A stretch of 64,000 nt of DNA from Trypanosoma brucei (taxonomy: Eukaryota): the NCBI GenBank assembly GCA_000002445.1, contig CP000069.1, positions 320,001-384,000 on the forward strand. The letters are read 5' to 3'. Made by a program: the position numbers and the translations under genes. This document shows, piece by piece, positions 18,865-23,529 of this stretch. The notes beneath the pieces were generated by a model. It was given only the letters and a program-made list of their open reading frames with translations, searched no databases and was not told where the DNA came from. Within the stretch, counting starts at the first letter, position 1. Each line of letters begins with the position of its first letter.

Positions 18865-21800
18865 TTGCTGGTTTGGAGGGTAGCAAGAGTCGCACGTCTT
18901 GATTGTTGTTCATGTTGTCGCCGTTGTAACCGGGGTGGCCACTCGGTGTTCGTGATGTAGAACCTCTATTTTTTTTTTTTTAAAGAGTGGTTATCGTTTT
19001 TTTTTTTAAGAAAATTTCTTTTTATCTGTTATTTAATTCTGCGTCGATGTCTCAAGTGTTTTCAATATCGCGCGTGCGCAACTATCGTTTACGATGATAT
19101 TAATTTCCATTCGTAACTGTGACATGAGCGCACCTACAAGTTTGAAATTTTGTAGATATGCGGTTGTATCAGTATGGCAAGAAATGTCATATGTAACAAA
19201 TGCAGCTTGTCAGTTGTCGTTGATTTCATTTTCCTCTCTTTGCTTTGTAGAAATGTGTATATGAACTTATCTGTGAATATGATGGTTTCCGGTGTTTTTT
19301 TTAAAATTACCATTGAGTAATTTTGTTTTTTGTTTCCAATTTGTGGATATTCTTTTTTTTTTCCCCTGCTTTACTTCTGTTGATGCTGTTTCGTTAGACC
19401 TTCTTTGTTGTAACCTGCAAGGCCTAATCTCCCGGCGGAATATGCCAGCATTTTATGCATTTGGTGAGTGGTCTGACGTCTTTTCCGGAGGGAGGAAATG
19501 GGAAACATGGGGTGGAAGGGTTATTAGGTGGTGATAACGTTTCTTTTTTCATTAATTTTTTTCGGACGTTTCCTTTGTTAAGGTAATGGTCTTACTTGCT
19601 CGCATGTGCGCTGTTGCGTTGAACTTTGCTTCTATACTCGTTGTTGGGTGTACCCGTATTTCTTTCTTTTTTCTTTGATGGTTTGTAAAGGGCGTGGAGA
19701 ATGGAAGTGGTATGACTTTTAGGAGCCGCTATGCGGGAGTGTTCTGGTGATTTACGTGCGAAAATGGGCACATATGCGACTGTGGCGTTCTGTGGTGATG
19801 TCTTCGCCCCTCTCGCATCCGCGTGGTTGTGTTAACACTTCGCCGTTACGTCGTGTAGTGCCCATGTGCGGGGTGATACAGTTGTTGCGGTGGCAAACAA
19901 TAGTTAAGTGCATGAGGGCGGGTGTAGAGAAAGACTTTCGTCGGGCAAAATAAGCCGCTGGGCTTCTTTAACGATGTGACGACCTTTCGATTTTTTTGCT
20001 GATGGGCAACTGTGCGGTTCCTCGTGCTCAATCAACGGATCACTGCTGTTGGTTGCTCTGCGTCGCTGCTGTCGTGCCTGCTTCCCCCATCTTTTGACTC
20101 GATGGGTGCTGGAGGTGTGTGTGTGTGTGTGTGGAGGGTTGTCTGATTTCTTTTAGCTTTTCAATGCTGCAGAGACAAACCCACATTTTTTTTGTTTCTC
20201 TTTTGCATAAATGAGATGCCGTGGAGACACTAAATGGCGACGTGTGCCTCCAACTGTCATGATGACGACTGTCATGTTCCGCCAATGCCTTCAGGTAGCC
20301 GAAATGTTTGGCTTTAAACAGTGTGTGCGTGTTTGTGGGGTGCGTGGGAACCGGAACTCCGGTGTCTCGGGGAAATGCGTGCCGCTTCTGATGAACCTTC
20401 GCCTCCCCCCGATAGCGAGGGAAGCCCGGTTCCCTCCGTCCACCGCAACGGACTCTTTTACTTGCGTATTGTCGAATATTCACACGAGGGAACTGAATTG
20501 GGTTTCCGTCAACTCCGCCTCTACAACTAAACTCGTCTGTGCCGCACCTCCAGAGGCGGGGTTGACGGAAACCCAATTCAGTTCCCTCGTGTGAATATAT
20601 ATCCGTCATTATGTATTTATGAATAGATGTGGCACCTTTGAATGTAAAATGAATCGGGTGTCCCATGACATGGAAATGGAATATTGCAACGGGTTTTTTT
20701 GGGAGCCGCCGGATTCTCCCGCCCAATTAAGCGGGAACTGGTGAGGCAAAAAGGCATTCGGTGCGGTGCCTTACGGTTGGGAAGTGGGTGAAGCCGTGAC
20801 GCCGCCGTAGCGTCGCACACACACACACACACAGAGAGAGACCACCAGGCACGGACATTTGGGCAAAAAAGGGGGCAAAAACGGTTCGTACCGCAGCAAA
20901 TGGGGGCCCATTTAGTTCTGATCGCACGCAGTTGCAAGCGTCGGTAATATAATATCTTTCTGCTTGTCACCGCGTTTTGAAAGGCCAGCGGGATGGAAGT
21001 ATTTGGAAGGAGAGGGGGGGGGGCTCTAAGAACAAAAACAACAATAACAAAAAAAAAGGATCTGCCACCGCGGCGGCGATTTACTCATTGTCAGCCCCGG
21101 ACAGGACTTGCAGGGATCCGCGCTTACGCTGACTAGGGGAAACGATGAGGCATCTGCAGCAAAATAAATAAATAATAATAATACTTATGGTTCCGGCAAA
21201 TTTGAGGGAAATCATCGGCAAGCCGAATGAGGAAGATGCCACTCCTCGTCATATACACTCTTTGGGTTGGCACCGCGGTGAGGGAAACATGGGAGGTGAT
21301 GGGGAATAAATCCGTTGCGTGCCACTTTACTTTTAGTTCCCGCTACCGCTTCTTTTATGGGTTACCCTATCGGATAATAATGAAGGTGTTGTGACAACGA
21401 TGTCCACGCAGCCTCTTCAGCTTACGGTAGTATCGGCAACTAAAGCGGAACGTTCGCAGAAGGACATGCATTTCCAGCAGGAAACCGTGCATGTCTCACA
21501 CGGCTGTGGCGTAGCCTTCGGAAATTTTTGTTACTTTTATGTTGTTGTTGTTGTTGGGGCGCGATAGAAATAGCCTCCGCAAAACTCGGAAAAGCCGGGC
21601 ATCTCCACTCAACTTAGTTTGGAATGCGAGGCTACACGTGTAGAAGGAGCTGAAAGGGAAGAAGTGCCTGTGGAAATCTTGTTGGTGTGCGGTAGCGGCT
21701 GATTTCTCACCCGCCCACTACTCGAAACCGGTTCCAAGTCCGCGTATCATCACACACACGCGGTTCCTACGGCCACTTTTTCCCCCTCCAGTTGCCGCTG

Positions 21801-23529
21801 GCAGTTAAAATGGCAGTCGTAACTAAACTAAGGACCAATACTTATGTATGTGTGTGCGTGTGTGGGAGTGTGGCAGGTATTTTCTAAAAAAAGCAGTAGT
21901 CACCCCCCTTTCTCTCACTTTCACCATTCCTCCTCATTTCCTCGCCGATTGTGTGGCACTGTGCTGTGCTACGCAATTCAAATCCATATGAGAAACCACC
22001 TTTTGATTCCCCTTCGCAAACATCCATCCATTGCTTTCAAGTCCTCAAGTGTTTGTTGCCCCCGCGGCAACGGGAGAAGTTTGCATGCGGGGGACACATT
22101 TCACGCGCCCAAATGCATAATTGTACGCTCCATTGGCTCCTGAACATCTTTGCCATGCTTTAGAACGGCAAAACACCATCCGTGAAACTGAGGCAGCCAT
22201 TATGAGCGAGTCGGCAGTAATAATAATAGTAATAATAAGAGCAACAATGATGCTATTAATGGCGGCGCAACGTCTCCACCCGTATTTTTTTTTTTTGTGT
22301 GTGTGTGTGTGCTAAGGCTAACAACAGCGTGTCAAGTAAATTCTTTTTAAGGTAGGATGGAAAGAAAAGGACACAAAAATGAGTACTTAAGAGGAATGAG
22401 TTACATTCGCCTTTTCAGCACATCATCCGTTAATTCATACATACACCGTCCACCCCCTTCTCCCAACGTCGTGAAAGACCCTACACCATTGAATAATAAC
22501 AACCCCAACAAAGAAGAAAAAGAAAAAAAAAACAGAACAAACGAACAACAACAAAAAAAAAACAGAATTAATATGATGGCGGCATGTTGCCGAAGAGAAA
22601 AATAGGATATAAATATATAAATATACAAATATAAATATATATGTGTTTTTTTCCTTTTGTTCGGGGCGGGGGTGGTGGAGGGGCTCTGGCGCTTTTTCAA
22701 GACCGGAAGCAACTTCGCTCCGTATATGGCCCGTAAAGGCTCTCATGCCAAATTCTCGCATGTATTATTGTTTTATTTTTATTTTTGGGTGGTGGGAAGC
22801 TTCGCACCTGGCGCCAGCACCGTCCGCCGCGCTGAAACTGATTATATTTATCGCCATTGTTTTTGTTTTTCATTTCGCTTTTAACCCGGCAGCACAAGCA
22901 CGAGGCAAAGAGAAAGAGAAAGAGAAAGAGAAAGGGAAAGGGGGCCTCTGATGGCGCGATAACTAATTTCACATGCGCTTGCAAAATAAGTCCCCCCTTT
23001 CCCACCTCTTCGCGGTTCTATCATATTCACCAACGCACTCAACCAACTGCCGGCATCATTCTCCTCCTTCTCCACACTCTTCCCATCGTAGTGGTCCCGC
23101 CCTGCATCGTCCGCAACATAAATGTGGATACAAAAGTGAGAGGCAATTTATTTATTTACTTTTTTCCCCCTCTCTTCTCTTTTCTTTTCTTTTCTTTTCT
23201 TTTTGTTTTGTTTTTTTTTAAATATTTTTTGCGTCCTTAAATCTATTCTCTTTAATTTTTTTTGTTTTTCCCGCCCCATCCATACTCCCGCATGATGGCT
23301 GGTCGTCTCCACTACGGTGTCCAACTGCACAACCCCCTCCTCCTCCTCCACCCTCAAATGCAACGAACAGACTGACAAACAAATACATAGACGTACACAC
23401 ATGCATATATTTTATTTTTTTTAAAAAAGAGGGGGGGGGGAGAGGGGAAGAAGAAAAAAAAAAAAAGGGAAAAGGGAAAAGGAATGAGAAACATTTTCCT
23501 TCCGATTTTCCGCCACGAGCTATGGATGT
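18865..23529. other. Convergent strand-switch region (transcription termination zone) between the + strand cyclase array and the - strand gene block
   Basis: All credible CDS to the left are on +, and all to the right are on -. There is no long ORF, tRNA A/B box or snoRNA-like C/D box in between. The interval contains the hairpin at 20476-20598 and several poly(T), (GT)n and (CA)n tracts. Confidence 0.7.
20476..20598. repeat. Near-perfect inverted repeat: 47-nt arms (20476-20522 and 20552-20598) around a 29-nt spacer
   Basis: The arms were compared base by base. The reverse complement of arm 2 equals arm 1 except for one position (T vs C). In a + strand RNA this is a G-U wobble; in the - strand RNA it is an A-C mismatch. 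The six-frame ORFs on both strands read the same peptide (YSHEGTELGFRQ) through it, as expected for a palindrome. Confidence 0.9.

What the first reader, a model, noticed from the sequence alone, without database searches (positions are those of the whole stretch)
18865..23529. Convergent strand-switch region immediately downstream of the adenylate cyclase array
The + strand array ends at 18864, and every credible gene from 23530 onward is on the - strand, so two polycistronic units converge here. In T. brucei such sites are transcription termination regions. They are marked by histone variants H3.V/H4.V and base J, and they often but not always carry tRNA genes. I could not find a tRNA or snoRNA here. 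The only structured element is the hairpin.
Basis: inference. Interest (0 to 1): 0.5.

Follow-up and report, generated by a model that had tools for sequence, protein, structure and literature searches.

The report
Known trypanosome convergent transcription-termination region
This is the place on Trypanosoma brucei chromosome 6 where a block of adenylate cyclase genes and the opposing gene block run into each other and transcription stops; it is real, but already mapped and studied in published work, so it is ordinary.

Summary
The window is T. brucei brucei TREU927 chromosome 6, bases 320,001-384,000. The offset is fixed by two genes in the supplements of Kolev 2010. The interval 18865-23529 is therefore chr6 338,865-343,529.

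- The last adenylate cyclase gene (Tb927.6.800, + strand) ends at 18864.
- All supported genes downstream are on the - strand.
- The window-wide peak of cumulative strand skew lies inside the interval.
- There is no tRNA gene and no Rfam family match.

The interpretation also holds, but it is already published:
- Kolev 2010 lists the transcription units Tb927.6.760->800 (+) and Tb927.6.1290->820 (-).
- Tschudi 2012 lists the site as CTU22, with 6,433 small RNA reads that depend on DCL2.
- Schulz 2016 treats it as a convergent strand-switch region (cSSR). Minus-strand RNA there rises about 8-fold without base J.

- An annotated ORF, Tb927.6.810 (20040-20666, - strand), lies inside the interval. 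It is an orphan, is broken in sister subspecies, and is almost certainly not a gene.
- The 109-aa ORF at 23530 is a Trypanozoon-only orphan that is absent from the published unit map. The last mapped - strand mRNA is PUF4, so the gene-free zone may reach about 28 kb.

A perfect 47-bp palindrome sits where + strand composition ends. Whether it does anything is open.

The parts
15031..18864 (+). Tb927.6.800, the last copy of the five-copy GRESAG4-type adenylate cyclase array. It is the last gene of the + strand transcription unit.
   Evidence: The ORF has Pfam adenylate cyclase domains. The array is Tb927.6.760-800, with five copies in T. b. brucei. The unit is listed as Tb927.6.760->800. Homology to the tandem unit stops at 18834, so the last 30 nt of the CDS and everything downstream are unique in the window.
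18865..20475 (+). Tail with + strand-type composition. It is presumed to be the 3'UTR of the last cyclase gene plus a read-through zone.
   Evidence: G+T excess is +248 per kb, against +89 per kb in the + unit itself. Five of the six polypyrimidine tracts here are on the + strand. In wild type, + strand RNA over the overlapping Tb927.6.810 ORF exceeds - strand RNA (log2 RPKM -1.64 against -3.76).
20040..20666 (-). Annotated ORF Tb927.6.810 (208 aa). It is most likely not a protein-coding gene.
   Evidence: It matches XP_845204.1 exactly. No homolog was found anywhere. It is frameshifted in T. b. equiperdum and has a stop codon in T. b. gambiense, and most substitutions change the amino acid. 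It contains both hairpin arms and a (GT)n run. Its wild-type RPKM is about 0.07. It is not part of either unit in Kolev Table S14.
20476..20598 (.). Near-perfect palindrome with two 47-nt arms and a 29-nt loop. It lies where + strand-type composition stops.
   Evidence: Repeat finding, RNA and DNA folds. It has no other copy in the window. Relative to two sister subspecies, TREU927 carries a paired change that keeps the stem intact. T. b. gambiense has a longer, imperfect hairpin of about 95 bp next to an assembly gap.
20599..23275 (.). Compositionally neutral core of the strand-switch region. It contains microsatellites and no conserved ORF.
   Evidence: Net skew is about 0 per kb, and this stretch forms the plateau of the cumulative skew. 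ORFs 21844-22143 (+), 22435-22761 (-) and 23148-23402 (-) are broken or change frame in the relatives. The sequence is unique in the window.
23530..23859 (-). Orphan 109-aa ORF, possibly the last small gene of the - strand unit. Its status is uncertain.
   Evidence: All 330 nt are identical in four Trypanozoon genomes, while the flanks differ by 2-5%. A T-rich tract and an AG lie just upstream of the ATG on the - strand. AlphaFold2 on the single sequence gives a helical hairpin with pLDDT 69.6. There is no homolog outside Trypanozoon and no Pfam match. It is not in Kolev's unit table or novel-transcript list.
23860..30721 (-). AT-rich (31% G+C), microsatellite-rich stretch that holds the PUF4 3'UTR. 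The mapped poly(A) sites are at window 29007 and 28064.
   Evidence: Composition, tandem repeats and poly(A) sites from the Kolev 2010 supplement.
30722..33823 (-). PUF4 (Tb927.6.820), the last annotated gene of the - strand unit Tb927.6.1290->820.
   Evidence: Pfam PUF repeats. It is 99% identical to T. b. gambiense 'pumillio RNA binding protein 4'. The unit is in Kolev Table S14.
17500..26800 (.). Published small-RNA zone, CTU22 of Tschudi 2012 (chr6 337,500-346,800).
   Evidence: The coordinate offset of 320,000 comes.

Best explanation
The interval is the convergent strand-switch region of T. brucei chromosome 6 at about 339-344 kb. It lies between a short + strand unit, made only of the five-copy adenylate cyclase array Tb927.6.760-800, and the long - strand unit Tb927.6.1290-820.

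Shown:
- The gene orientation, and the absence of any conserved coding sequence or RNA gene in 18865-23529.
- + strand-type composition continues for about 1.6 kb past the cyclase stop codon and ends at the palindrome. A neutral core of about 2.7 kb follows.
- In published data both strands are transcribed into this zone. The overlap yields DCL2-dependent siRNAs from both strands.
- Loss of base J, and more so loss of J plus H3.V, raises RNA from the - strand about 8- to 13-fold and from the + strand about 1.5- to 2.3-fold.

Inferred:
- RNA polymerase II from both sides is stopped here by chromatin marks (base J, H3.V, H4.V) and not by a sequence-specific terminator or by Pol III genes, since no Pol III genes are present.
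- The annotated ORF Tb927.6.810 is a chance ORF within the read-through zone.
- The palindrome is a by-product of local DNA rearrangement that may add hairpin RNA to the Dicer substrate pool.
For: Identity and coordinates.

Orientation and lack of genes.

Skew maximum inside the interval.

No tRNA or Rfam family.

Published unit map.

Small RNAs from both strands, lost in dcl2-/-. By normalised reads this site ranks 8th of the 48 convergent units listed.

Listed among the cSSRs of Reynolds 2016.

Stranded RNA-seq in J-null and H3.V-null cells.

General rule that transcription ends at convergent SSRs marked by H3.V, H4.V and base J.
Against: No ChIP or J-IP profile for this site could be read here, so the marks are inferred from the genetic effect and from the general rule.

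In Reynolds 2016, 21-27 nt small RNAs at the matching Tb427 site did not rise in the H3.V knockout (logFC -0.15, P = 0.245). In Schulz 2016, H3.V loss alone had no effect. H3.V may therefore matter little at this site.

The right-hand boundary is uncertain. It is 23530 if the 109-aa ORF is a gene, and about 28064 if the PUF4 poly(A) site is the true end of the - strand unit.

Equating Tb427 coordinates with TREU927 coordinates is an approximation.
Confidence: 0.9

Rival explanations
1. The region is much narrower. Tb927.6.810 would be a real last gene of the - strand unit, and the strand-switch region would be only 18865-20039 (1.2 kb), as annotation-based studies define it.
For: Tb927.6.810 is an annotated TREU927 protein. 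Schulz 2016 uses it as the gene flanking the cSSR, with a distance to the cSSR edge of 628. Its sense RNA is detectable and rises 8- to 13-fold without base J.
Against: It has no homolog in 5.8 billion clusters. The ORF is frameshifted in T. b. equiperdum IVM-t1 and stopped in T. b. gambiense, and most substitutions change the amino acid. It is translated through both arms of a palindrome and through a (GT)n run. Its wild-type RPKM is about 0.07, and the antisense signal is about 4 times higher than the sense signal. It is left out of Kolev's unit table.
Confidence: 0.05
2. The gene-free convergence zone is wider than the finding says. The 109-aa ORF would not be a gene, the - strand unit would effectively end at the PUF4 poly(A) sites (window 28064-29007), and the termination zone would span about 18865-28000.
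For: Kolev Table S14 ends the - strand unit at Tb927.6.820, and no novel transcript is listed on chr6 between 310 and 424 kb. PUF4 poly(A) sites lie at window 29007 and 28064. The ORF has no homolog outside Trypanozoon, is labelled 'unlikely' in T. b. gambiense, and has no TREU927 accession. Tschudi's small-RNA zone extends to window 26800.
Against: The ORF has no substitution over 330 nt in four genomes, while its flanks differ by 2-5%. A polypyrimidine tract and an AG lie just upstream of the ATG. Its composition is not low-complexity and it has a moderately confident helical model. Entries Tb6.NT.33 and Tb6.NT.34 are missing from Kolev's list, so absence from the list is not proof.
Confidence: 0.35
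3. The palindrome is a working part of the site. It would act as a hairpin RNA that DCL2 dices to seed siRNA production, or as a DNA or RNA structure that slows polymerase or replication at the point where the + unit's transcription ends.
For: It is an extremely stable 47-bp stem. It sits exactly where + strand-type skew stops. A hairpin is kept in three subspecies, with one paired change that preserves pairing and a different, longer arm layout in T. b. gambiense. The site yields abundant DCL2-dependent small RNAs.
Against: There is a single paired change among very close relatives, and gene conversion between palindrome arms explains it without any selection. Convergent transcription alone accounts for siRNAs at all 49 convergent units surveyed. 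The siRNA-producing inverted repeats known in T. brucei have arms of 422-10,011 bp. No read-level data were available here.
Confidence: 0.1
4. The region hides a further gene, either a + strand gene, a Pol III gene or a snoRNA. The pattern would then not be a simple convergence.
For: Several ORFs of 80-127 aa exist on both strands. T. b. gambiense annotation calls three of them.
Against: None of these ORFs is in the protein collection for TREU927 apart from Tb927.6.810. All are disrupted or change frame in relatives. There are no tRNAs, no Rfam matches and no tandem snoRNA-like repeats. No novel transcript is reported there.
Confidence: 0.03

Closest known systems
Convergent strand-switch regions (transcription termination regions) of T. 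brucei, as catalogued by Kolev 2010, Tschudi 2012 (CTU1-50), Reynolds 2016 and Schulz 2016
   Same: Two units converge here. There is no conserved gene between them. DCL2-dependent siRNAs come from both strands, and RNA rises when base J, or J plus H3.V, is removed. This very site is CTU22, and it is the cSSR flanked by Tb927.6.800 and Tb927.6.810.
   Different: Nothing differs in kind. Three particulars stand out. It has no tRNA genes. The + unit is unusually short, consisting of the cyclase array alone. H3.V loss by itself has no measurable effect here.
Long inverted-repeat siRNA loci of T. brucei (IR1-IR7, Tschudi 2012)
   Same: Both are inverted repeats with near-identical arms, lying in a region that yields small RNAs.
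   Different: The arms here are 47 nt. The known loci have arms of 422-10,011 bp. This palindrome was not among the seven listed, and none of those is on chromosome 6.
tRNA-associated Pol II termination sites in trypanosomatids
   Same: Both lie at the end of polycistronic units.
   Different: There is no tRNA or other Pol III gene in the whole 64-kb window or in the orthologous loci.

Membership tests
T. brucei convergent strand-switch region / Pol II termination region | The last genes of the two flanking polycistronic units point towards each other | tested here: met
   The + strand cyclase array ends at 18864, and all supported genes from 30722 (or 23530) onward are on the - strand. The published unit table agrees.
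T. brucei convergent strand-switch region / Pol II termination region | No bona fide protein-coding or RNA gene between the two units | tested here: met
   Tb927.6.810 and the other small ORFs are orphans and are disrupted in sister subspecies. There are no tRNAs or Rfam matches.
T. brucei convergent strand-switch region / Pol II termination region | Strand-compositional asymmetry switches sign | tested here: met
   The 64-kb maximum of cumulative keto and GC skew lies at 20333-23275.
T. brucei convergent strand-switch region / Pol II termination region | Enrichment of H3.V, H4.V and base J | not testable with these tools
   No ChIP or IP tracks are available here. Indirect support comes from RNA at Tb927.6.810, which rises 8-fold in J-null cells and 13-fold in J-null H3.V-null cells. 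H3.V loss alone has no effect.
T. brucei convergent strand-switch region / Pol II termination region | Overlapping transcription that gives DCL2-dependent siRNAs from both strands | tested here: met
   This rests on published data, not on a new computation. CTU22 has 3392 top-strand and 3041 bottom-strand reads, which fall to 0.45% of wild type in dcl2-/-. Coordinates were matched through.
tRNA-associated termination site | tRNA or another Pol III gene at the unit boundary | tested here: not met
   ARAGORN finds 0 genes in the window and in L001-L003. Rfam finds none. B-box matches are at the chance level.
Long inverted-repeat siRNA locus (IR1-7) | Inverted repeat arms of hundreds to thousands of bp at about 99-100% identity | tested here: not met
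   The arms are 47 nt. A sensitive self-comparison of the interval finds no longer inverted match. The known range is 422-10,011 bp.

The most novel reading that the evidence does not exclude
The 123-nt palindrome at 20476-20598 (chr6 340,476-340,598) would be a functional element of this termination region. It lies exactly where + strand-type composition ends, and it is kept as a hairpin in three T. brucei subspecies despite arm turnover. It would act either as a nuclear Dicer (DCL2) hairpin substrate that seeds the abundant CTU22 siRNAs, or as a structural block to polymerase.
Probability: 0.1. Interest if true: 0.45.

Novelty: already known. Interest (0 to 1): 0.1.

Why it matters
It matters little as a discovery. 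The site is already in the published maps of T. brucei transcription units, siRNA loci and J/H3.V-dependent termination.

The check does have some practical value:
- It shows that the annotated gene Tb927.6.810 is almost certainly not a gene. Studies that use it as the 'last gene' of the unit are in effect measuring read-through RNA.
- It flags an unannotated, perfectly conserved 109-aa ORF at the tail of the - strand unit.
- It points to a conserved palindrome whose contribution to siRNA production or termination could be tested with existing small-RNA data.

Tried and rejected
1. Wrong coordinate assignment, later corrected. I first placed the site at Tschudi's CTU21 (232-241 kb), because the T. 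b. equiperdum IVM-t1 record puts the orthologous ORF at 238.6 kb. Gene coordinates in the Kolev 2010 supplements give an offset of exactly 320,000, so the site is CTU22.

2. Synteny in other trypanosomes could not be examined. The PUF4 search returned only T. b. gambiense and a T. grayi protein on a 5.7-kb contig. Exact-protein look-ups for TREU927 proteins found no record.

3. Homolog searches found only the query itself. This applies to the 109-aa ORF, by both word-index and exhaustive phmmer searches, and to Tb927.6.810.

4. The relaxed Rfam scan gave only sub-threshold hits. These were a bacterial Leu leader on the hairpin and plant or animal miRNA families on AT-rich repeats. I rejected them as chance.

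5. Polypyrimidine-tract orientation was tried as a strand marker. It helps only for 18.9-20.2 kb, because tracts occur on both strands elsewhere.

6. A larger degenerate palindrome around the hairpin was sought by sensitive self-BLAST and not found in TREU927. The symmetric (GT)n and (CA)n runs are not evidence on their own.

7. Siegel 2009, which holds the H3.V and H4.V ChIP-seq, is not in the paper library.

8. No fold search was run on the model of the 109-aa protein. A two-helix hairpin would only give non-specific matches.
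Full report
**Identity of the window.**
The 208-aa ATG-to-stop ORF at 20040-20666 (- strand) is identical to XP_845204.1, 'hypothetical protein Tb927.6.810' of T. brucei brucei TREU927. It lies on a 1,618,915-bp contig, which is chromosome 6.

The four + strand ORFs of 1274-1277 aa carry adenylate cyclase domains. They belong to the GRESAG4-type array Tb927.6.760-800, which has five copies in T. b. brucei and four in T. b. gambiense (Jackson 2010). The 1033-aa - strand ORF at 30722-33823 is PUF4, Tb927.6.820.

Supplements of Kolev 2010 fix the coordinates. Tb927.6.880 lies at 377624-379234 (-), which is the window ORF 57624-59234. The two poly(A) positions of Tb927.6.820 (348064 and 349007), added to their 3'UTR lengths (2658 and 1715), both give 350722, which is window 30722. 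The window is therefore Tb927_06_v4 320,001-384,000, and the finding covers chr6 338,865-343,529.

**The observation.**
The last cyclase ORF ends at 18864. Homology to the tandem unit ends at 18834, so the last 30 nt of that gene and everything downstream are unique in the window.

Every downstream ORF with domain support is on the - strand: PUF4, a GST-like protein, a NOT2-like protein, a myotubularin-like phosphatase and a SAC3/GANP protein. The + strand ORFs of 150 aa or more in that part are low-complexity translations or sit inside - strand genes.

Composition agrees with this layout. Cumulative G+T minus A+C skew climbs through the + unit at +89 per kb. It climbs faster through 18865-20475 (+248 per kb), is flat through 20599-22500 (-3 per kb), and then falls (-133 per kb through 23530-30721, and -38 per kb beyond). 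The 64-kb maximum forms a plateau at 20333-23275.

No tRNA gene is found in the window or in the three orthologous loci. No Rfam family reaches its gathering score. A relaxed scan of 18500-31000 gives only sub-threshold chance hits. B-box-like matches occur at the chance rate.

The hairpin is real. It has 47-nt arms that are 98% complementary, a 29-nt loop, an RNA folding energy of -96.7 kcal/mol and z = -15.

**What lies inside the interval.**
I compared the region with three relatives: T. b. equiperdum IVM-t1 (L001), T. b. gambiense DAL972 (L002) and T. equiperdum OVI (L003).

- **Tb927.6.810.** The ORF is frameshifted in L001 and has a stop codon in L002. Most of its nine substitutions change the amino acid. 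It has no homolog at all. It is read through both arms of the palindrome and through a (GT)n run.
- **Other small ORFs.** ORFs 21844-22143 (+), 22435-22761 (-) and 23148-23402 (-) are also broken or change frame in the relatives.
- **The 109-aa ORF at 23530-23859 (-).** All 330 nt are identical in four genomes, while the flanks differ by 2-5%. On the - strand a T-rich tract and an AG lie just upstream of its ATG. A single-sequence AlphaFold2 model gives a helical hairpin with pLDDT 69.6. Against this, it has no homolog outside Trypanozoon by word-index or exhaustive phmmer search. It has no Pfam match. It is called 'unlikely' in T. b. gambiense and carries no TREU927 accession.

**What the literature already shows for this site.**

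- **Kolev 2010, Table S14.** The putative Pol II units are Tb927.6.760->Tb927.6.800 (+) and Tb927.6.1290->Tb927.6.820 (-). Tb927.6.810 belongs to neither. The list of novel transcripts has nothing on chromosome 6 between 310 and 424 kb, although entries NT.33 and NT.34 are missing from the list.
- **Tschudi 2012.** Tb927_06_v4_CTU22 at 337500-346800 corresponds to window 17500-26800. It has 3392 top-strand and 3041 bottom-strand small RNA reads in wild type. The normalised level is 153% of wild type in dcl1-/- cells and 0.45% in dcl2-/- cells. By normalised reads it ranks 8th of the 48 convergent units listed. The authors attribute such siRNAs to overlapping transcription.
- **Reynolds 2016.** A Tb427 cSSR is listed at chr6 339037-344823. 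Its 21-27 nt RNAs do not change significantly in the H3.V knockout (logFC -0.15, P = 0.245).
- **Schulz 2016.** A cSSR is defined as the space between the coding regions of the last + strand gene and the last - strand gene. Tb927.6.810 is listed within 1 kb of such a region. The log2 RPKM values are:

| Strand of RNA over Tb927.6.810 | Wild type | J-null | H3.V-null | Double null |
|---|---|---|---|---|
| Sense (- strand) | -3.76 | -0.69 | -3.53 | -0.05 |
| Antisense (+ strand) | -1.64 | -1.01 | -2.10 | -0.42 |

In wild type, more + strand than - strand RNA covers this 'gene'. That fits the compositional evidence that the cyclase unit's transcription runs on to about 20.5 kb. Base J, and not H3.V alone, restrains transcription here.

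The general rule is stated: transcription ends at convergent strand-switch regions marked by H3.V, H4.V and base J, and Pol III gene clusters are often but not always present.

**Most likely mechanism.**
Polymerase II leaves the last cyclase gene and continues for 1.5 kb or more. Polymerase from the PUF4 side passes the PUF4 poly(A) sites (window 29007 and 28064) and the 109-aa ORF. The two streams overlap over several kilobases and die out in the neutral core.

The overlap gives double-stranded RNA that the nuclear Dicer DCL2 cuts into siRNAs. Base J, with a contribution from H3.V, limits how far polymerase gets. The orientation, the absence of genes, the siRNAs and the J dependence are shown. 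The presence of the marks at this site, and the exact stopping points, are inferred.

**The palindrome.**
It lies at the point where + strand-type composition stops. The loop and the right arm are conserved in the three subspecies that cover it. TREU927 differs from the other two by a G/C exchange in both arms that keeps the pairing.

In T. b. gambiense the left arm is different. The inner part pairs poorly, but the pairing extends a further 40 nt or so, giving an imperfect hairpin of about 95 bp (-115.8 kcal/mol). This hairpin abuts a 100-N assembly gap.

This looks like a turning-over DNA palindrome. Arm-to-arm conversion explains the paired change without selection. A 47-bp perfect stem would nonetheless be a good Dicer substrate if transcribed. 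Whether it contributes to CTU22 siRNAs or to termination cannot be decided here. I put that at about 10%.

**Boundaries.**
Three definitions coexist:

| Definition | Window coordinates | Basis |
|---|---|---|
| By annotation (Schulz 2016) | 18865-20039 | Uses Tb927.6.810, which I reject as a gene |
| The finding's own | 18865-23529 | Correct if the 109-aa ORF is a gene |
| By mapped mRNAs (Kolev 2010) | 18865 to about 28064 | PUF4 poly(A) site is the end of the - unit |

I rate the third at about 35%.

**A correction made on the way.**
I first matched the site to Tschudi's CTU21, using the chromosome coordinates of the T. b. equiperdum record. The Kolev coordinates showed that this was wrong.

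**Verdict.**
The feature is an ordinary strand-switch region that has already been described. Interest is low.

Noticed in passing
window 20476-20598; L001 13257-13379; L002 13345-13552: A perfect 47-bp palindrome sits inside the annotated ORF Tb927.6.810. TREU927 carries a paired G/C exchange in both arms relative to two sister subspecies. T. b. gambiense has a longer, imperfect hairpin of about 95 bp that abuts a 100-N assembly gap (L002 13553-13652).
   Followed up: partly
window 23530-23859 (-): An orphan 109-aa ORF is identical at every nucleotide in four Trypanozoon genomes, while its flanks differ by 2-5%. It has a polypyrimidine tract and an AG upstream and a helical-hairpin model (pLDDT 69.6). 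It has no homolog outside Trypanozoon, no TREU927 accession, and is not in Kolev's transcript lists. It lies inside the siRNA-producing zone.
   Followed up: partly
window 23860-30721: This 6.9-kb stretch has only 31% G+C (down to 24% locally) and is packed with A-rich microsatellites. It contains the PUF4 3'UTR. It is more diverged between subspecies (92-93% identity) than the neighbouring sequence (95-98%).
   Followed up: no
window 18835-18864: Homology among the tandem cyclase copies breaks 30 nt before the stop codon of the last copy. That copy therefore has its own C-terminal tail (…YDPCYREMCSF instead of …YDMHLQEY) and its own 3' flank.
   Followed up: partly
window 1-18864: According to Kolev 2010 Table S14, the + strand transcription unit consists only of the five adenylate cyclase copies Tb927.6.760-800. 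That makes it a very short unit holding a single gene family between a divergent and a convergent strand-switch region.
   Followed up: no
window 20816-20833; L002 about 13060-13165: A (CA)9 microsatellite in TREU927 is expanded by about 95-98 nt in T. b. gambiense and T. b. equiperdum. A (GT)9 run at 20116-20133 lies on the other side of the palindrome.
   Followed up: no
window 33798-34361 (+) and 36650-37213 (+): Two + strand ORFs, both exactly 187 aa, turned out to be unrelated low-complexity translations of intergenic sequence. They are neither a repeat nor genes.
   Followed up: yes
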